A DNA stretch of 39,809 nt from a virus (taxonomy: Duplodnaviria > Caudoviricetes): positions 1 through 39,809 of IMG/VR virus record IMGVR_UViG_3300046001_008474. One strand, written 5' to 3'. The translations under genes were made by a program, and so were the position numbers. This document shows positions 7,890-32,185 of this stretch, one piece after another. Positions within the stretch are counted from its first letter, which is position 1, and each line of letters begins with the position of its first letter. The notes under the pieces are model-generated. The model worked only from the letters and a program-made list of their open reading frames with translations. It was not told the origin of the DNA and searched no databases.

Positions 7890-8354
7890 ATGGCATTTGA
7901 AGATATAACTAAAAAACAACTAAGAGGTGTTGATTTGGCTATAAAGGCCTTATCAAAAAAATTTCCTTTTGTGGAAGGTTGGAAATTTAGTCATGATTAT
8001 CAAAAATATAATTCAAACTTGTTTATTCATTTAATAGTTGACTACAAAAAAATTGGTGAATATTACGGTGTTGAATTGCAACCATATTATGAAGAAAAGT
8101 TGTTAAAAAATCCTGATTATTTTAAAAGTTCTTTTATAGGTACATTTTTTGAAGGTAATTACACATATGATACTCCTGAATATAAAGAATACATTCATCG
8201 TTGGTGGTCTAGAGCTCAAGACCTAAAAGAATATTTGGAACTTATATATAAAAGTTTACCTGAAGATTTTCAAATGTTATGGTCAACAGAAAGGTTTCCT
8301 GAAAACAAACATCCAATAAGTTTAAACGTTCAAAACTTTGTTCAAAAAAATTAA
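7890..8354 (+). CDS. Hypothetical protein (KKFPFV family)
   Basis: ORF track; TATTTAT 7879. Confidence 0.8.
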   Translation: MAFEDITKKQLRGVDLAIKALSKKFPFVEGWKFSHDYQKYNSNLFIHLIVDYKKIGEYYGVELQPYYEEKLLKNPDYFKSSFIGTFFEGNYTYDTPEYKEYIHRWWSRAQDLKEYLELIYKSLPEDFQMLWSTERFPENKHPISLNVQNFVQKN

Positions 8355-19106: not shown

Positions 19107-20384
19107 TTAACTAATCAACTTTTTATTACGTTTTTTTCTGTGAAAATTAATAGTAAATCTATGTACTTCATCTTGAATTCTTGCAAGTTGAAAAAAACTT
19201 TCTTCATGTTCCATTTTTATGGACTGACCATTAGTCAAATGTATGGTATCTGACTTGTGGTTGTCATTTTTTGATATTGATATTAAGTCAATTTTGTCAA
19301 ACAAATCAAGTTCTTGAAGTACTTTGATTGCAACGTTTAGTTGACCTTTACCACCATCAATAAGAATCATGGATGGTAGAACACCTTTTTCTTTCATAAG
19401 TCTTTTTAAACGTCTGTTGAGTACCTCATCAAAAGATGCGTAATCGTCAGGACCTTCTACAGTTTTAATATTGAATTTTCTGTATGAATTTTTTTCAGGT
19501 AAACCATTAACATATCTTACAGAACAAGACACTTGACAGTCACCAGCGTGGTGAGAATTGTCAAATGCCTCAACAATTAACGGTGTGTTTTTTAAACCAA
19601 GTTTAGTCTTTAAGTTTTTAGAAAGTTCGATAACATGTTTTACTCTCAAAGGTTCTAAAAGTTTTTTTAGGTCAACAAAATATTCGAGTTTGTGTTTGAA
19701 TTTTTCACATTTCTCAAACTCTAATCTTTTAGAATACTCATTAAGTATTTTTTTTAGTTTGGATTCGATATTATCAAATTTGAATTCAAATAGTTCACGA
19801 ACCATTTTAACATTTTCATGATAAACAAACTTGTCAATATCACCTGAACAAGGAGCGTCACATTTTCCAATGTGAAAGTCTAAACAAGGTCTGAATTTTT
19901 GTGTTTCAATATTTGATTTACTCAAGTTGTAAGAACAAGTTCTAAGACTAATCACATTGTGAATAGTTTCATAAACCTCATAACAAGTGTTACTGTTTGT
20001 AAATTCACCCAAAACTTCAATACCTTCTTCAAGTTTTGGAAATACTTCTAATTTTGGAAAATCACCACCCGTCAAACCAATGTACCATCTACGACTTCTA
20101 TCATCTTTACCTTTAATATTGAATTTTGGACGATATAACTTAATTAAGTCATCTTCAAGTAAAAGAGCTTCACTTTCATTAATAGTTGTTACAAAATCAA
20201 CGTCACGTATTTTTTCACGTAGTACTTTTACTTTTTCATCATCATGGTTTTCCCTGAAATAAGACATGACTCTGTTGGGTAAATATTTAGATTTACCAAC
20301 ATAAATTATTTGGTTTTTCTCATCTTTGAAAAGATAACAACCCGAGGATTTGGGTATTAGGGAAAGTTTTTCTTGAAGAACCAT
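19107..20384 (-). CDS. uvrC: Excinuclease ABC subunit C-like (short, no HhH)
   Basis: GCY...IYVGKSK.L..RV.SYF GIY-YIG; Cys cluster; LEFE UVR; EAFDNSH, YRKFNIK, DDYA, IDGGKGQL, RIQDEVHRF. Confidence 0.9.
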   Translation of the reverse strand: MVLQEKLSLIPKSSGCYLFKDEKNQIIYVGKSKYLPNRVMSYFRENHDDEKVKVLREKIRDVDFVTTINESEALLLEDDLIKLYRPKFNIKGKDDRSRRWYIGLTGGDFPKLEVFPKLEEGIEVLGEFTNSNTCYEVYETIHNVISLRTCSYNLSKSNIETQKFRPCLDFHIGKCDAPCSGDIDKFVYHENVKMVRELFEFKFDNIESKLKKILNEYSKRLEFEKCEKFKHKLEYFVDLKKLLEPLRVKHVIELSKNLKTKLGLKNTPLIVEAFDNSHHAGDCQVSCSVRYVNGLPEKNSYRKFNIKTVEGPDDYASFDEVLNRRLKRLMKEKGVLPSMILIDGGKGQLNVAIKVLQELDLFDKIDLISISKNDNHKSDTIHLTNGQSIKMEHEESFFQLARIQDEVHRFTINFHRKKRNKKLIS

Positions 20385-24120: not shown

Positions 24121-26052
24121 ATGTCAAAACATTCTAATTATATTAAAAAATTAAATGAAACTTTAATATTCCAATCACATAATCCTTTATTTTATGAAGG
24201 TAATACTACAGAAGGAGCTAAAGTACTAACTAAAAAAGTTACAGATTCTATAGATGCTGATAGATGTTCAATATGGTTATATAATGAAGATAAATCTGAA
24301 ATAATATGTGAACAATTATATGTTAAATCTGAAAATACTTGGTATCAGAATATAACACTACATAAAAAAGATTTCCAACCTTATTTTTTAGAGTTATTAT
24401 CAAACCCAATTATCATTGCCAATGATGCCGAAACACACCAAGCGACTTCTTGTTTTACCGAAAATTATTTAAAACCTCTTGGGGTAAAATCAATGTTAGA
24501 TGTCCCTGTTATTTATCGTGGAGAAACTATTGGGGTGATTTGTATTGAGTCATTAACATTTAGAGAATGGGATGATGTTGAGATTGATTTTGCACAATTA
24601 TTATCATCTATTTATAGTTTTGCATATTCAATTAAAGAAGGGAATGATTTATTGAGGATAAATAAAGAAACTGAAAATTTTTTAAATAGTGCCGCAATTG
24701 TTTCGGTCACAGATAAAAATGGTAAAATTACATACGTTAATAAAAAATTTGAGGATGTATCTGGATGGTCTTTGGATGAAGTAATGGGTAAAGACCATAA
24801 TATTGTTAACTCAGGGTTACAACCTGATGGTTATTGGGGTGAAATGTATCAGACAGTAATGAAAGGTGAGATATGGAATGATGTTGTTACCAATAAATCA
24901 AAATCCGGAGAATTATATTACGTTGATACATACATTAAAGCAAAATTTAATAAAAATGGTAAGTTAGAAGGATTTTCATCAATTAGACAAGATGTAACGG
25001 AGATTAAGAAAAAGGAAGTGGAAATCCGTAATAGAATGAATGCGATAAATAAATCTAATGCGGTTATTGAGTTTGATTTAGAAGGAAATATTATTTTTGC
25101 CAATGACTTGTTTTTAAACACTATGGGTTATTATTCACAAGATGAAGTAATTGGAAAACACCATAGAATTTTTATAGGCGATGAATATGCAAAAAGTGAC
25201 GAGTATTCTCTTTTTTGGAAAAAATTAAATGAAGGTGTATTGTTTTCTGGTGAAATTGTTAGAATTAAAAAAGATGGGTCTTTAGTACATTTGCAAGCAA
25301 CTTACAATCCTATCGTTGGTATGGATGGTAAGATTTATCGTGTTATGAAAATAGCTACGGATATCACCGAATCTTATGAACAAAAAAAAGAGATTGAAAA
25401 GAAAAATACTTACTTAGAACACGCTGCCAAAATATTAAGACATGATATGCACTCAGGTATTAATACTTATATGCCAAGAGGACTTAGTTCATTAGAACGT
25501 AGATTGAAACCTGAAGATATTGAATCATTAAAGATTGAATCACCCCTTAAAATGATTAAGGAAGGACTTAAACATTCACAAAAAGTTTATAAAGGTGTTT
25601 ACGAGTTTACCAATCTTGTAAAGAAAGATGTTGTATTAAACAAATCTGAATGTAATGTAAAAAACATCCTTATTGATTATTTATCATCAACCGCTTATAT
25701 AAGTCAAGTGGTGTTAGAAGATAATTTACCAACAATCGAAATTAATGAGGCGTTATTTTGTACGGCAGTTGATAACCTAATAAGAAATGGTTTAAAGTAT
25801 AACGACTCTGAAACAAAGTTTGTTAAGATAAGTTATGAGGACGGCTCAATTTTAATACAAGATAATGGTAGAGGGATATCCCAAGAAGATTTTAATTATC
25901 TATCTAAACCATATACAAGAAAAGAAGGGCAAAAAGAATCTGGTACAGGGTTAGGTTTAAATATTTGTGTGGCAATTTTAGAAGAACACGGGTTTATAAT
26001 TACCTGTGAAAAAAATGAAGTTGGAACTAAAATGAAAATAAAAATAAAATAA
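24121..26052 (+). CDS. Cytoplasmic sensor histidine kinase GAF-PAS-PAS-HisKA-HATPase
   Basis: GAF (SMLDVPV..G.ICIE), two PAS/PAC, H-box RHDM, N-box NLIRNGLKYN, DNGRGI, GTGLGL; no TM. Confidence 0.92.
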   Translation: MSKHSNYIKKLNETLIFQSHNPLFYEGNTTEGAKVLTKKVTDSIDADRCSIWLYNEDKSEIICEQLYVKSENTWYQNITLHKKDFQPYFLELLSNPIIIANDAETHQATSCFTENYLKPLGVKSMLDVPVIYRGETIGVICIESLTFREWDDVEIDFAQLLSSIYSFAYSIKEGNDLLRINKETENFLNSAAIVSVTDKNGKITYVNKKFEDVSGWSLDEVMGKDHNIVNSGLQPDGYWGEMYQTVMKGEIWNDVVTNKSKSGELYYVDTYIKAKFNKNGKLEGFSSIRQDVTEIKKKEVEIRNRMNAINKSNAVIEFDLEGNIIFANDLFLNTMGYYSQDEVIGKHHRIFIGDEYAKSDEYSLFWKKLNEGVLFSGEIVRIKKDGSLVHLQATYNPIVGMDGKIYRVMKIATDITESYEQKKEIEKKNTYLEHAAKILRHDMHSGINTYMPRGLSSLERRLKPEDIESLKIESPLKMIKEGLKHSQKVYKGVYEFTNLVKKDVVLNKSECNVKNILIDYLSSTAYISQVVLEDNLPTIEINEALFCTAVDNLIRNGLKYNDSETKFVKISYEDGSILIQDNGRGISQEDFNYLSKPYTRKEGQKESGTGLGLNICVAILEEHGFIITCEKNEVGTKMKIKIK

Positions 26053-26065
26053 AAAAAAGAAAAAA

Positions 26066-26497
26066 ATGATTGATTCAATTTTATTAGTTGATGATGAGGA
26101 TTTATTCCATTTGGTTTTTGAGGATAGTTGTTCCTTATTAGACATTACATTGTCATTAAAAAGTTTAAATAGTTCTGATGAGGCCGCTAAATTATTCGCC
26201 GATTGGCAAAAAAACTCAAATGGTAAACCTGAATGTGTATTCGTTGACCTTAATATTATAGGTTCATCCTTTGATGGTATTGAACTTATCCGTAAGGTTA
26301 ATTTTGAGTATGGTAATAACGTAGTTATAGGTATTATATCTTCGAGTAACGAATCGGAAGAACAAGCTAAGGCAGTACAAGCGGGAGCTCAATTTTGGAT
26401 AATAAAATCTGACGACATTGAACCTCGTTTAGAAGAGTTTAGAAAAGATTACGAAGGTTATAAAAATAGAACCGCACCATTTAAAGTGTATAAGTAA
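26066..26497 (+). CDS. Stand-alone response regulator (receiver only)
   Basis: LLVDDE, FVDLN phosphoacceptor, DGIELIR, ISSS, IIKS. Confidence 0.9.
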   Translation: MIDSILLVDDEDLFHLVFEDSCSLLDITLSLKSLNSSDEAAKLFADWQKNSNGKPECVFVDLNIIGSSFDGIELIRKVNFEYGNNVVIGIISSSNESEEQAKAVQAGAQFWIIKSDDIEPRLEEFRKDYEGYKNRTAPFKVYK

Positions 26498-27174
26498 TGG
26501 TTAAACTCAACAAAGAAACTAAAAACGAATTAATTGAATTATTAAATTCTAAAAGCATTGCTTTAGAAGGTAATATTGTTAAATTATTTGATGCTGAGGG
26601 TGATGTTGAGTTTGAAAAATATTTAAAAACTTGTTCTGAGAAAGATAAAGATAATAGAAAAAAACGTTTAGAAATTACTAAACAAGTTCAATTACAAAAT
26701 AAAGAATTATCCGACCTTAATTTGGAAAATGCAAAAATTATGTCCGAATTACAGACAACTCTTAAAAATGTTGAGGAATCTAAAAATCAAATTGAACTTC
26801 AGAACAGGGAACTCATAGCATGGAAAGAAGATAATGAACGAATGGGTCAGGAACTTAAAGAGGAAATGGCCAAGTCAGAAATTGCTCGAATTGATGCTGA
26901 AAATGCTAAGAAAAACGCCGAAAATGACCTTGATGTTTTACAAAAAAGAACTCAGTTTCAATTGATTAATACAATTGTAAGAATGGCGTTATTTGTAATT
27001 GTTGGTGTTGGTATAGTGACTACGATTTTATATATGACCGCAATCTTTTACAACAAAGACACTCAAATTATCGGTTCAACTTGGAGTAATATGTTTGGTA
27101 TTTTACTAACTAACGCTTTTAGTATTGTTGGTACAATAATGGGTGTTAAATACGCGTCAGAAAAAAAAGATTAA
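26497..27174 (+). CDS. Coiled-coil protein with two C-terminal TM helices
   Basis: Long heptad region, two hydrophobic segments; TAATG coupling to the regulator. Confidence 0.85.
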   Translation: MVKLNKETKNELIELLNSKSIALEGNIVKLFDAEGDVEFEKYLKTCSEKDKDNRKKRLEITKQVQLQNKELSDLNLENAKIMSELQTTLKNVEESKNQIELQNRELIAWKEDNERMGQELKEEMAKSEIARIDAENAKKNAENDLDVLQKRTQFQLINTIVRMALFVIVGVGIVTTILYMTAIFYNKDTQIIGSTWSNMFGILLTNAFSIVGTIMGVKYASEKKD

Positions 27175-27361: not shown

Positions 27362-28189
27362 TTATTTTGTGACTTCCAAATCCATCATATTCATTTCATA
27401 TGCTCTTGCTAATCGAGTTAAACCGATTCCACCACCGAATCTTTGAAAAAAAGTTAAAGATAAGAATTCTTCTAACTCTTTTTCAACTCTTTCTTTTCCA
27501 AAAAGTTCGAACAATTTATCACAGTATTTACCATTCTCAATGGTATAAAACATTTCTCTCATTTTTCCAACATCACAACTTCTTTCGGCACTTCCAATTG
27601 TTTCTTGACCAAAAAGAATAACGTCAATTTTGTTAAATACATTGTTAGTTCCATGTTTCATGTTCCAAAATGGATTTGTCCTCAACGGAAAATGTTCGAG
27701 TGAAATTACATCACCTATCTCGTGCCACATTTTTGTTTCATGTTCATTTTCTAAAATTTGAGTTTCATATTCCGCACACATACCTTCATAAGTTACGTAT
27801 TTTGGGGTTCCAAAACCTAAGAAAAGTAACAATTCTTTTTCTAATTTTTGTAATTCACTGATACCTCCTTTGGATTCAAATTCAAACATAGGGAAAATTA
27901 ATTCATGACGACCTGGTATTGGATTTTTTTCTTCCCTGTACGAAGTTGAAACACAAAACACGCCTGACCATTCAGGATTCTTTAATAATTCATATTCTAA
28001 CCACATTTGTCCTGTTTGTGGTAATGGCCAAATTTTACCACTATACTCAAATGTTTTAACAGAATGTGGATTTTCACATGCCGCCAAAATTGAGAGTCTT
28101 GATTGTGTTGGTACTTCGATGAATCCTTTCATCAAGAAAAAATACCTTAATTTTTGTACTAATTCATTGTAGATTTTTGTTTGTTTCAT
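27362..28189 (-). CDS. Class IIb aminoacyl-tRNA-synthetase-like catalytic domain (AsnRS2/EpmA-like, no anticodon domain)
   Basis: Motif 1 GFIEVP, motif 2 YREE...GRH..F.MFEFE, ETIGSAER, motif 3 GGGIGLTRL. Confidence 0.85.
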   Translation of the reverse strand: MKQTKIYNELVQKLRYFFLMKGFIEVPTQSRLSILAACENPHSVKTFEYSGKIWPLPQTGQMWLEYELLKNPEWSGVFCVSTSYREEKNPIPGRHELIFPMFEFESKGGISELQKLEKELLLFLGFGTPKYVTYEGMCAEYETQILENEHETKMWHEIGDVISLEHFPLRTNPFWNMKHGTNNVFNKIDVILFGQETIGSAERSCDVGKMREMFYTIENGKYCDKLFELFGKERVEKELEEFLSLTFFQRFGGGIGLTRLARAYEMNMMDLEVTK

Positions 28190-30012: not shown

Positions 30013-30516
30013 TTATTTTTCTTTAATTAAATTCATACATCTTTTTAGATATTCTTTAGTTCTTGGAGTTGGGTCTTGATGTGCAAGTACTTTTTCAATG
30101 TCCCTAACTAATTCTTCACCATGTTCATTTTCTTTATAAAGTTCAATAACTTTATCCATGGCTTTTAAACATCCACCATTAGTTTCATCAAAATAATTTT
30201 TATTTCTGAATGTGTTCAGGTGATTCATAAGATTATATGCAATATTTTCACCACCATCTTTAATATTTGGATGTAAACGTAAAGTTTTTAGAACGTCTAA
30301 GGCATCAACCATTCCTGACACACCTCCATCTCTAACATACATGTCAGAAGTGTAACTTTTATAATCTTTTGCTTTTCCAACAATCTCATCTAATGGAATA
30401 ACATTGTTAGTTAAACATCTCTGTTTAACTTCCTTAGTTTCTCCACCTTCATTTTCTAATAAATGTCTTCTGATTGATTTTTTTATATCTTTTTCGTTTA
30501 TTACAATTTTTTTCAT
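30013..30516 (-). CDS. Hypothetical protein with MKKIVINEKDI...LLE leader
   Basis: ORF track; TATTTAT(-) 30534. Confidence 0.8.
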   Translation of the reverse strand: MKKIVINEKDIKKSIRRHLLENEGGETKEVKQRCLTNNVIPLDEIVGKAKDYKSYTSDMYVRDGGVSGMVDALDVLKTLRLHPNIKDGGENIAYNLMNHLNTFRNKNYFDETNGGCLKAMDKVIELYKENEHGEELVRDIEKVLAHQDPTPRTKEYLKRCMNLIKEK

Positions 30517-30570
30517 GATAATCTCTTTTTGTAATAAATATTTGATAATTGGTAATAATTCAAGAGTAAA

Positions 30571-30765
30571 TTATTCTTCTTTTTCGTTTTCATTTGGTAA
30601 CATAAATTGTAACCAAATATCAAAACACAAATAACAAATCCACCAAATTAAATCATTGATGGGATAATCAAATGGGAATCGTTTGGTCATATAAAGGAGG
30701 TATATAACTTTAACGAATACACCAATTCTAAGAACTATTAATAGTATTGAAATTAATCCTTTCAT
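30571..30765 (-). CDS. Small membrane protein
   Basis: Two hydrophobic segments; ATGA overlap with the kinase gene. Confidence 0.6.
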   Translation of the reverse strand: MKGLISILLIVLRIGVFVKVIYLLYMTKRFPFDYPINDLIWWICYLCFDIWLQFMLPNENEKEE

Positions 30766-31214
30766 AATTTTACCTCAAATCTTTCTTTCATAATTTGTAA
30801 TTTATCATCAGGAACTCCATGAAGGTTTTTACCACCATGACGATTTTCAACAATAACACAAAAAACCATATAACCATAATTTTTTGCCAATTCAAAATAA
30901 GGTTTCATTTCCCATTCTTGGGTGAATGTATTTGAAACGGCAATTTCTCTATAGAATTGGTCATTTATCAAACTATCTTTCATGTAAGTTTCAACCAAGT
31001 CCTGACAATACTTGTGAGCATCCTTCAGTTTGGTAACATCGAAGTTATAATCACCCGTTTCTTTATCGATAAAATACTTATCTGCCTCACATACCAAGAA
31101 GTCATCACCGACTAATTTCTCGGCAAATGTTGATTTACCACTTCCTGGTCAAGGAAGCCCTCTAACAAGGTATAAAACCTTGTCAAAGGGCTTCGAATTT
31201 TCAAATTTTTTCAT
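30762..31214 (-). CDS. P-loop (AAA_33 / polynucleotide-kinase-like) protein with in-frame TGA in Walker A; probably recoded, otherwise a pseudogene
   Basis: MKKFENSKPFDKVLYLVRGLP*PGSGKSTFAE in frame with ORF 30762-31097; AH..CQ, VSNTF, HGVP motifs intact. Confidence 0.8.
31154..31194 (-). promoter_or_regulatory. 18-bp mRNA hairpin abutting the CCU-UGA-CCA site
   Basis: GAAGCCCUUUGACAAGGU-UUUAU-ACCUUGUUAGAGGGCUUC: 16 WC + 2 GU pairs on the coding strand. Confidence 0.8.
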
Positions 31215-31279
31215 AATTAATTATATTTATATATAATCAGGGGTTTACCTGAATTATCAAACAAATATAAATAAAAAAA

Positions 31280-32185
31280 ATGAATGTAGAAACAAAATTA
31301 GAAAGGAAATGTCCAACTTGTGAAAGGATTATAAAGTATTCTAACAAATATAATTTAAATGCTGCACAAAATAATAATAGGGATTGTAAAAGTTGTAGTA
31401 CTAAAAAAAATAGACCCGAAGGTTATAAAGAAAAATTATCAGAAAGGTTTAAAGGTAAAAATAATCCTATGTGGGGTAAAACAGGGAGTTTAAATCCTTT
31501 TTATGGAAAAAAACATACTGAGGAAACTAAACGTAAAATTATTGAAAATAGAAATTATTCATCATATAAGACTGAAAAATTTAGAAAAAAAATTTCAGAT
31601 TTGACCAAAGGAAAAAAAAATCCGATGTACGGAAAAACGGTATATGATGTTTGGTTCAAAAAATATGGAAAAAAAATTGCCGATGAAAAAATGGAAGAAT
31701 TAAAATTAAAACAATCATTTTTAAATTTTGGGGAAAAAAATAAGATGTTTGGTAGACCTTCACCTAAAAATTCAGGTAATGGAATCTGTGGGTGGTATAA
31801 AAATTGGTTTTTCAGAAGTTTACTTGAGTTAAGTTATATGATTAATGTTATTGAAAGATTTAATTTAGTTTGGGAAACGGGTGAAAAAGAAAAGTATAAA
31901 ATAGAATATGAATTCAATGGTGTTAATAGGAATTATTTCCCCGATTTTATAATTGAAAACAAATACATTGTTGAATTGAAACCGAAAAAATTACAAAAAA
32001 CACTTTTAAATCAAAGTAAATTTCTTTACGCTGAAAAATTTTGTTTAGAAAACGGATATAAATTCAAAGTTACAAATATTAAAAATATTAATAAAAAGGA
32101 ATTATTACTATTGATTGATAATGGATTAGTTAATCTTACTAACAAATGGAAACATAAAATTAAACCGAATAATGATATTTATTAA
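31280..32185 (+). mobile_element. Free-standing homing endonuclease: Zn ribbon + NUMOD3 repeats + TnsA-like PD-(D/E)XK nuclease
   Basis: CPTC/CKSC; NPMWGK, NPFYGKKHTEETKRKI, NPMYGK; FRS.LE...YFPDF...VELKP. Confidence 0.85.

What the first reader, a model, noticed from the sequence alone, without database searches (positions are those of the whole stretch)
30762..31214. Candidate minimal 'stop-hop' ribosomal bypass: CCU-UGA-CCA in a Walker A, preceded by an 18-bp hairpin
Seen: the - strand reads ...GTT AGA GGG CTT CCT TGA CCA GGA AGT GGT AAA TCA ACA (VRGLP*PGSGKST; TGA at 31151-31149), in frame with an otherwise intact kinase. The stop is flanked by two Pro codons. If peptidyl-tRNAPro takes off at CCU and lands on CCA, the product is exactly the canonical GLPGSGKST. 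Simple readthrough (GLPxPGSGKS) would break the GxxxxGKS spacing. An 18-bp stem (31194-31154) ends at the take-off codon, and its two G-U pairs work only on the mRNA strand. Known: T4 gene 60 bypassing uses matched codons, a stop and 5' stem-loops; hopping over a stop between synonymous codons has been shown in E. coli reporters. Inference: a programmed 6-nt bypass element.
Basis: partly seen in the sequence, partly recalled or inferred. Interest (0 to 1): 0.92.

Follow-up and report, generated by a model that had tools for sequence, protein, structure and literature searches.

The report
Six-base ribosome hop in phage kinase
A lake phage's kinase gene is broken inside its ATP-binding loop by six extra bases that start with a stop codon, and over a hundred similar 5-9-base breaks follow a predicted RNA hairpin in related kinase and unrelated helicase genes, often beside a likely selfish DNA-cutting gene; ribosomes most likely hop over the break, which would be a miniature natural version of the phage T4 gene 60 jump.

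Summary
Observation confirmed, and larger than reported. The TGA (31151-31149) splits the Walker A of an AAA_33 kinase, right after an 18-bp hairpin (z -6.2). Public phage contigs gave 118 distinct elements at this same P-loop codon: 86 in kinases, 32 in unrelated UvrD helicases. All read hairpin - CCT/CCG/CCA - stop (TAA, TGA or TAG) - gap of 5-9 nt in total. Fourteen gaps change frame, which excludes readthrough as the shared mechanism. Only 48 landing triplets are Pro codons, but 111 could pair with tRNA-Pro(UGG) through G-U wobble. None ends in C, and take-off is never CCC. The hairpin covaries, and downstream frames stay under purifying selection. Helicase elements carry an HNH nuclease instead. 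Best reading: a hairpin-driven ribosomal stop-hop that likely shields the site from the nuclease, a miniature of T4 mobA/gene 60. No RNA or protein evidence was obtained. This scan's earlier notes report similar short gaps on other DNA (nadD, terL, uvsW); I did not check them.

The parts
31152..31214 (-). ORF1: 21 codons (MKKFENSKPFDKVLYLVRGLP), ending in the take-off Pro. About 9 codons longer than intact alleles; the extension carries the hairpin's 5' arm
   Evidence: nearest ATG 21-23 codons upstream in 64 of the interrupted kinase alleles against 11-13 codons in 34 of 39 intact ones
31154..31194 (-). 18-bp 5' hairpin ending on the first base of the take-off codon; proposed driver that refolds behind the ribosome
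   Evidence: z -6.16; z < -3 in 84 of 86 kinase elements against 0 of 39 intact; compensatory changes
31152..31154 (-). take-off codon CCT (Pro)
   Evidence: CCT/CCG/CCA in 118 of 118 elements, never CCC; the CCN itself was required by my search patterns and classifier, the third base was free
31149..31151 (-). in-frame TGA stop, first half of the 6-nt coding gap
   Evidence: relatives use TAA 62, TGA 41, TAG 15
31146..31148 (-). landing triplet CCA, second half of the gap
   Evidence: relatives: CTA 37, CCA 27, CCG 16, CTT 11, CTG 8, TCA 5, CCT 5, ACA 5, TTA 2, TCG 2
30762..31145 (-). ORF2: GSGKST... 127 codons, the body of an AAA_33 (PNK-like) P-loop kinase; first in-frame start is a TTG at 31097, after the Walker A
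   Evidence: Pfam AAA_33 above cut-off
31280..32185 (+). putative free-standing homing endonuclease (NUMOD3 repeats + TnsA-like nuclease domain), divergent from the kinase; likely mobiliser of the cassette
   Evidence: homologs within 1.3 kb upstream in 12 of 16 interrupted against 0 of 64 intact loci; internally deleted (31375-32051) in L003, which keeps the element
31139..31145 (.). 3' edge of the cassette: intact allele L001 has no mismatch to the window from 31139 down to 30083 and differs above 31139
31262..31269 (-). TATATTTG, matches the Bacteroidota -7 promoter consensus TAnnTTTG (motif recalled, not from a call); possible kinase promoter
   Evidence: sequence
31237..31252 (-). small hairpin in the kinase 5' leader; role unknown

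Best explanation
The six bases TGACCA interrupt the kinase's Walker A and arrived, likely by homing, with the adjacent putative endonuclease gene; ribosomes most likely hop over them. Proposed steps: (1) Shown: CCT is followed by a stop, and a strong hairpin ends on the take-off codon. (2) Inferred: with peptidyl-tRNA-Pro(UGG) on CCU and the stop in the A site, the hairpin's apical part, already outside the ribosome, nucleates. Its GC-rich lower stem (about 11 pairs still in the mRNA exit channel) zips up and pulls the mRNA out, so the ribosome slides 3'. (3) Inferred: the tRNA re-pairs on the first triplet it can pair with (CCA here; CUA, CUG, CUU, UCA and others through G-U wobble in relatives), and decoding resumes at GGA, giving ...RGLP-GSGKST. 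(4) Inferred by analogy with T4 MobA: the insert destroys the endonuclease's target in the conserved P-loop codons, so the cassette can home into intact alleles without killing the gene.
For: Sequence: 118 distinct elements in two unrelated families, 86 AAA_33/PNK-type kinases and 32 UvrD helicases, at the same GxP|G[ST/C]GK junction. All three stops occur. Gaps are 5-9 nt, and 14 are not multiples of 3, with zero-frame readthrough ending within 4-35 codons. No sense-codon insertion was found among 388 kinase/helicase loci. tRNA rule: in 111 of 118, the landing is the first C-containing YY(A/G/T) triplet after the stop, against a background of 9-14% per triplet. No landing ends in C, and take-off is CCC in 0 of 32 helicase elements although CCC is their commonest Pro codon (164 of 512; nominal p 4e-6; 6 of 32 intact alleles, Fisher p 0.024). 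Hairpin: z < -3 in 112 of 118 elements against 1 of 71 intact alleles; the stem ends at -3 to -5 from the stop in 113 of 118. 38 cells with double changes against 9.8 shuffled, 0 of 500 (similar). Stronger on the mRNA strand in 94 of 118. Function kept: dN/dS median 0.15 (kinase) and 0.25 (helicase) between interrupted alleles; sole copy in two complete helicase genomes and in a complete 309-kb phage. Mobility: endonuclease adjacent in 12 of 16 against 0 of 64 loci, HNH in 15 of 30 against 0 of 29 helicase alleles. The 60-nt cassette tracks the endonuclease (rho 0.75) more than the kinase body (0.24), and the insert state is scattered on the kinase tree. Precedent: MobA and the gene 60 insert (bioRxiv 10.1101/2022.08.31.505936); exiting-mRNA pairing as forward driver (bioRxiv 10.1101/2024.12.09.627546).
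Against: No protein, ribosome-profiling or RNA evidence; no RNA contig bridges the site. Seven landings break the rule (ACA 5, TTA 2), and only 48 of 118 are Pro codons, so efficiency may be low. The elements share ancestry, so the 118 are not independent and the p-values are nominal. Independent-pair tests of insert against endonuclease never go the wrong way but are underpowered (median p 0.25 and 0.5). About half the elements lack a detectable nuclease neighbour (23 of 55 kinase, 15 of 30 helicase). dN/dS between interrupted helicases (0.25) is higher than between intact ones (0.06), from different clades and divergences, and part of the divergence may predate insertion. One helicase allele (L511) is frameshifted. 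The G-U strand bias is modest in kinases (82 against 58 pairs). The kinase's essentiality is unknown.
Confidence: 0.8

Rival explanations
1. The 5-9 nt are cut out of the mRNA by a protein-assisted micro-splicing step guided by the hairpin, and normal translation follows.
For: Fits any gap length and any stop. Some of these kinases are themselves PNK-like RNA-repair enzymes and sit by an RNA ligase (L328).
Against: Excision has no reason to require a tRNA-Pro-pairable last triplet, or to avoid CCC and NNC. The gaps are far too short to self-splice. No Rfam match in the window. Helicase phages are a different lineage. No RNA contig spans the site, so this is not excluded directly.
Confidence: 0.07
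2. The endonuclease cassette simply knocks the gene out or truncates it; the hairpin and stop are tolerated damage or a way to switch the gene off.
For: The AAA_33 kinase may be dispensable. One of 32 helicase alleles is frameshifted. Interrupted helicases have a higher dN/dS.
Against: Downstream frames are full length in nearly all loci, with dN/dS 0.08-0.09 in the closest interrupted pairs. The interrupted helicase is the only copy, next to the primase, in complete genomes. Frame-correct landing triplets and a compensated hairpin would not be maintained.
Confidence: 0.05
3. Stop-codon readthrough or recoding (UGA=Trp/Sec), or a prfB-like +1 frameshift driven by the AGGGGG/AGAGGG three bases upstream.
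For: C follows the stop in 103 of 118 elements, a weak termination context (recalled). The kinase elements have prfB-like spacing, AGRGGG-NNN-CCU-UGA-C. Databases hold GLPWPGSGKS proteins.
Against: TAA and TAG are as common as TGA. Readthrough fails for 14 frame-changing gaps and gives P-x-P-G-S-G-K, not G-x4-G-K. A +1 shift is out of frame for 6-nt gaps. Helicase elements have no such purine run. The W forms are gene calls under UGA=W, while the window's other genes end in TGA.
Confidence: 0.04
4. ORF1 and ORF2 are made separately (re-initiation after the stop) and reassemble, as in the MobE-split nrdA.
For: Endonuclease-split genes that complement in trans are described in the Manning & Atkins discussion.
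Against: No start codon lies at the resume site (CCA/CTA/TCA...). The first in-frame start in the window (31097) removes the Walker A Lys-Ser. ORF1 is only 9-27 residues in most alleles.
Confidence: 0.04

Closest known systems
Phage T4 gene 60 50-nt bypass with the MobA homing-endonuclease cassette and its homologs (Manning & Atkins, bioRxiv 10.1101/2022.08.31.505936; Wills et al., bioRxiv 10.1101/2024.12.09.627546)
   Same: Stop directly after the take-off codon; re-pairing of the same tRNA; insert in a conserved motif; travels with an exchangeable endonuclease that is often lost; 5' structure proposed to push the ribosome forward
   Different: 5-9 nt rather than 50; Pro rather than Gly/Asp; kinase and UvrD genes rather than topoisomerase; main hairpin wholly 5' of take-off and strongly conserved (the gene 60 5' SL is not conserved); landing often by wobble at codon positions 1-2; TnsA-like or HNH nuclease; the gene is not split into two ORFs by the nuclease gene
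Streptomyces phage Hau3 and prophage terminase 7-10-nt coding gaps (Antonov et al. 2023, PMC10732093)
   Same: Short gap in a conserved phage protein; bypass shown by an MS junction peptide in E. coli
   Different: A hungry UUA codon rather than a stop; proposed regulatory role; structure surrounds the gap; no endonuclease link in the sections read
Synthetic 'stop hops' in E. coli (Weiss et al. 1987, as reviewed in Atkins et al. 2016, PMC5009743)
   Same: Matched codons flank a stop, 9 nt give one residue: exactly the window's geometry
   Different: Low-level, unstimulated, made in reporters; the 2016 review states no natural in-frame occurrence is known
byps of Magnusiomyces mitochondria (seen only as summarised in the papers above)
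   Same: Mobile inserts bypassed by ribosomes, tolerant of imperfect landing
   Different: 27-55 nt, unused sense codon in the A site, mitochondrial
prfB +1 frameshift site
   Same: Purine run 3 nt before the P-site codon and UGA-C in the kinase elements (prfB layout recalled)
   Different: The net shift is +5 to +9 nt, and the purine run is absent in helicase elements

Membership tests
T4 gene 60 / MobA bypass element | Inserted in the topoisomerase II large-subunit Toprim DxD motif | tested here: not met
   Host genes are AAA_33 kinases and UvrD helicases
T4 gene 60 / MobA bypass element | [quoted passage not shown] | tested here: met
   118 of 118, but the stop is part of my search definition; no sense-codon insertion in 388 loci
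T4 gene 60 / MobA bypass element | Take-off and landing readable by one tRNA | tested here: inconclusive
   Met in the window (CCU/CCA). 48 of 118 are Pro codons, 111 of 118 pair with UGG if G-U is allowed at positions 1-2, 7 do not
T4 gene 60 / MobA bypass element | Take-off / A-site stem-loop inside a long coding gap | tested here: not met
   Gaps are 5-9 nt. A 6-bp CUUCCU/AGGAAG pairing is possible in the window but competes with the 5' stem and is broken in relatives such as CCG-TAACTA-GG
T4 gene 60 / MobA bypass element | 5' stem-loop forming on exiting mRNA | tested here: met
   Predicted in 112 of 118 at z < -3, with covariation; its function is untested
T4 gene 60 / MobA bypass element | Mini-SD about 6 nt 5' of the landing site | tested here: not met
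   Kinase AGRGGG ends 9 nt before the landing and lies inside the stem; none in helicase elements
T4 gene 60 / MobA bypass element | Linked homing endonuclease, often lost later | tested here: met
   the nuclease is TnsA-like or HNH_3, not shown to be MobA
T4 gene 60 / MobA bypass element | Insert protects from nicking; nascent-peptide signal; measured bypass | not testable with these tools
   needs cleavage and translation assays
Pfam AAA_33 P-loop kinase | Score above the curated cut-off | tested here: met
   32.3 bits against 27
Pfam AAA_33 P-loop kinase | Contiguous Walker A G-x4-G-K-S/T | tested here: inconclusive
   Restored only if the 6 nt are skipped; 115 of 120 database homologs have RG-xx-G-x-GK[ST], and 4 are UGA=W calls
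byps / Hau3-type hungry-codon bypass | Unused or rare sense codon in the A site | tested here: not met
   A-site codon is always a stop

The most novel reading that the evidence does not exclude
A general, portable third way for homing endonucleases to invade essential motifs, besides introns and inteins: a roughly 50-nt cassette (hairpin, Pro codon, stop, wobble-landing triplet) that makes ribosomes hop 5-9 nt efficiently. It is used by unrelated nuclease families in P-loop genes of unrelated phages and hosts, and is driven by refolding of exiting mRNA alone. It would be a natural in-frame stop-hop and the minimal system for testing the 'exiting-mRNA driver' model.
Probability: 0.55. Interest if true: 0.9.

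Novelty: new variant of a known kind. Interest (0 to 1): 0.8.

Why it matters
Programmed bypassing is shown at the bench for few natural cases (T4 gene 60, yeast mitochondrial byps, Hau3 terminase), and a 2016 review knew no natural in-frame stop-hop. These elements strip the mechanism to one hairpin, one Pro codon, a stop and one triplet, with 118 natural variants that already vary stop, gap length and landing pairing. That makes the disputed model of exiting-mRNA pairing pushing the ribosome, and the latitude of P-site re-pairing, directly testable. They also show how homing endonucleases can invade P-loops without introns or inteins. In practice such genes are mis-annotated as truncated or as UGA=Trp proteins.

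Tried and rejected
RNA check: four RNA-labelled runs with 7-13% of the words were laid on 30400-31500; no listed piece bridged the site and most were relatives, so this is uninformative. Raw DNA reads over the site were not seen. Rfam: no match in the window. PDB sequence search with an intact homolog: no match. Cellular genomes: of 61 pattern matches only L593 (contig in a Saprospirales MAG) was a real element. A scan with the take-off codon left free gave 15 matches; the 5 with hairpin and kinase frame all had Pro, so there is no evidence for non-Pro versions, at low power. An endonuclease-centred locus search found only the window's own lineage and weak NUMOD3 hits. A de novo scan of the window, all of G006 and G001, most of G007 and G008, and 20 kb of G005 recovered each genome's one known element; other hits looked like noise, and one checked (L734) was an open frame. 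Isolated phage DSL-LC04 has an intact helicase; the 617 kinase matches in cultured phages were not inspected for the gap. Independent-pairs test underpowered. The careful kinase tree did not finish; the quick tree was used. Fixed-column covariation over all kinase elements was rejected because the 5' arm slides in register; two register groups chosen by eye were tested instead, which favours the structure. Alternative genetic code rejected: neighbouring genes end in TGA and all three stops occur.

Full report
Observation. The window is a 39.8-kb AT-rich virus record whose DNA occurs in lake metagenomes. On the minus strand, 31214-30762 reads MKKFENSKPFDKVLYLVRGLP*PGSGKSTF...EVKL*, an AAA_33 P-loop kinase whose database homologs are mostly 138-142 aa and read RG[LIV]PGSGKS. 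An 18-bp hairpin (31194-31154) ends on the first C of the CCT before the TGA; z = -6.16, 0 of 200 shuffles. IMG/VR contigs L002 (99.9% identical over 6.4 kb) and L003 carry the same six bases, so this is not an assembly error.

A family, not a one-off. A protein-based search kept the best 80 of 235 related viral loci: 16 have a stop insert at this codon and 64 are intact. Of these, 388 held a kinase or helicase P-loop: 194 interrupted and 64 intact kinases, 60 interrupted and 70 intact helicases, none with any other kind of insert. After removing identical 40-nt upstream + gap strings there were 86 and 32 distinct elements. Six loci below the score threshold were admitted by hand (L115, L328, L477, L380, L390, L527). 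The ratios are not frequencies, because patterns select inserts. The second family is unrelated: UvrD/Rep helicases of GC-richer phages, interrupted at KVFGPP*..GSGKTT next to a primase. The kinases include stand-alone AAA_33, PNK-phosphatase and kinase-phosphodiesterase forms.

Anatomy. Take-off: CCT 55, CCG 52, CCA 11, CCC 0. Stops: TAA 62, TGA 41, TAG 15. Gap: 5 nt (4), 6 (103), 7 (7), 8 (3), 9 (1); four scans fixed the gap at 6, so the lengths are biased. The 14 frame-changing gaps cannot be read through, since the zero frame closes within 4-35 codons. Last triplet of the gap: CTA 37, CCA 27, CCG 16, CTT 11, CTG 8, TCA 5, CCT 5, ACA 5, TTA 2, TCG 2. Only constrained this triplet, and it gave one element. 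In 111 of 118 it is the first C-containing YY(A/G/T) triplet after the stop, against 9-14% expected per triplet, and two 7-nt gaps skip a YYC triplet to reach it. That is what an anticodon 3'-GGU-5' would pair with, allowing G-U at positions 1-2 (decoding rules from my own knowledge). CCC is the commonest Pro codon in the interrupted helicases (164 of 512) yet is never the take-off (0 of 32; intact alleles 6 of 32). The elements are related by descent, so these p-values are nominal.

The hairpin. z < -3 in 84 of 86 kinase and 28 of 32 helicase elements, against 0 of 39 and 1 of 32 intact alleles. The stem ends 3-5 nt before the stop in 113 of 118. In one register group of 27 sequences the outer helix is 97.9% paired, and 38 cells change on both sides (shuffled 9.8; 0 of 500; slid controls 3-6). 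The window's group of 20 gives 34 against 16.9. It is stronger on the mRNA strand in 94 of 118. A median of 11-12 pairs have their 3' base within 15 nt of the stop, i.e. inside the ribosome at take-off (inference), so the stem can finish forming only if the ribosome moves 3'. Interrupted kinases start about 9 codons earlier than intact ones, which puts the hairpin downstream of the initiation site.

The gene is still used. Interrupted pairs have dN/dS medians of 0.15 (22 kinase pairs; intact 0.12) and 0.25 (76 helicase pairs; intact 0.06, other clades), with 0.08-0.09 in the closest pairs. Some of this divergence may predate insertion. One helicase allele, L511, is frameshifted. The interrupted helicase is the only match in two 100%-complete genomes, and the interrupted kinase the only match in a complete 309-kb genome.

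The missed part: a homing cassette. Window 31280-32185 encodes NUMOD3 repeats and a TnsA-like nuclease. Homologs or remnants lie within 1.3 kb upstream in 12 of 16 interrupted and 0 of 64 intact loci. Among distinct alleles with at least 1 kb upstream: 31 of 55 against 0 of 39; one further element and one intact allele had a GIY-YIG-like neighbour. Helicase elements have an HNH nuclease directly upstream in 15 of 30 against 0 of 29. L003 has deleted 677 bp of the nuclease and kept the element. Intact L001 is identical to the window from 31139 to 30083 but has a different 5' end and no nuclease, placing a crossover in the P-loop codons. Across 24 loci the 60-nt cassette tracks the nuclease (rho 0.75, Mantel p 0.0005) better than the kinase body (0.24). 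The insert state needs 26 changes on a quick tree of 109 kinase bodies, at least 9 forced by well-supported branches. Independent-pair tests never went the wrong way but cannot reach significance.

Mechanism. Shown: sequence, distribution, covariation, linkage. Inferred: pause at the stop, hairpin-driven forward slide, re-pairing of peptidyl-tRNA-Pro(UGG), resumption at Gly, and protection of the site from the nuclease. I put bypass at 0.8. RNA excision (0.07) is not directly excluded, because no RNA contig bridged the site.

Known systems. I read the abstract, introduction, one results section and the discussion of Manning & Atkins (bioRxiv 10.1101/2022.08.31.505936): MobA elements are all in topoisomerase genes, the insert protects from nicking, nucleases are swapped and lost, and the 5' SL is not conserved. 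I read the abstract, introduction and one discussion section of Wills et al. (10.1101/2024.12.09.627546) on exiting-mRNA pairing as driver. From Antonov et al. (PMC10732093) I read the abstract and sections 3.4 and 3.6, on 7-10-nt UUA gaps with MS support. Passages of Atkins et al. 2016 (PMC5009743) state that for natural in-frame stop hopping no occurrences are known. Passages of PMC6815119 and PMC12619734 added nothing specific. Ten full-text searches listed no paper whose title or abstract start describes such short nuclease-linked stop gaps in kinase or helicase genes. The library lacks most subscription papers, and the bioRxiv supplements (Manning & Atkins Table S2) could not be seen. The element works like gene 60 but fails membership (other host gene, no A-site stem-loop in the gap, no mini-SD). 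Earlier AI notes of this scan describe similar 5-7-nt gaps beside nucleases in nadD, terL and uvsW. I saw them after finding the nuclease link, did not test them, and do not count them as support.

Verdict: real, most likely a programmed, nuclease-linked ribosomal stop-hop; a new variant of a known kind; interest 0.8.

Noticed in passing
P0049, P0053, P0063, P0081: Database proteins reading G[LV]PWPGSGKS appear to be these elements called with the stop read as Trp: an annotation artefact that could also inflate counts of 'code 4' phages.
   Followed up: partly
L506:1818-3626, L520:3-1811: Two helicases carry both the hop gap and a weak intein-domain match further on: two kinds of mobile insert in one gene.
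   Followed up: no
L502, L499, L509, L541, L516/L424 just upstream of the stop: In several helicase elements the ATG lies inside or at the hairpin with a purine-rich SD-like run just 5' of it, so ORF1 is only 9-15 residues; the hairpin may also limit initiation.
   Followed up: no
L715:5338-5429 and 7975-8068; L726 (genome G006): A complete element-bearing 309-kb phage has three tRNA-Pro(TGG) calls, two of them 92-94 nt long and away from the tRNA cluster.
   Followed up: no
window 24121-27174: Phage-encoded GAF-PAS-histidine kinase followed by a response-regulator-like ORF and a coiled-coil membrane protein.
   Followed up: no
window 27362-28189 (-) and 19107-20384 (-): A stand-alone class II tRNA-synthetase-like catalytic domain, and a UvrC-like GIY-YIG/RNase H protein.
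   Followed up: no
L388, L458, L378, L352, L319, L383 upstream: In 6 of 27 loci the TnsA-like nuclease is co-oriented and ends 46-92 nt before the stop, close to or overlapping the kinase start; in 21 it is divergent, as in the window.
   Followed up: partly
upstream of L015, L025, L044, L066 and others: A shared leader (..TTCGGTATC...ATACCTCTAA.AATAAATATATG) with a small hairpin precedes many interrupted kinases and belongs to the cassette.
   Followed up: no
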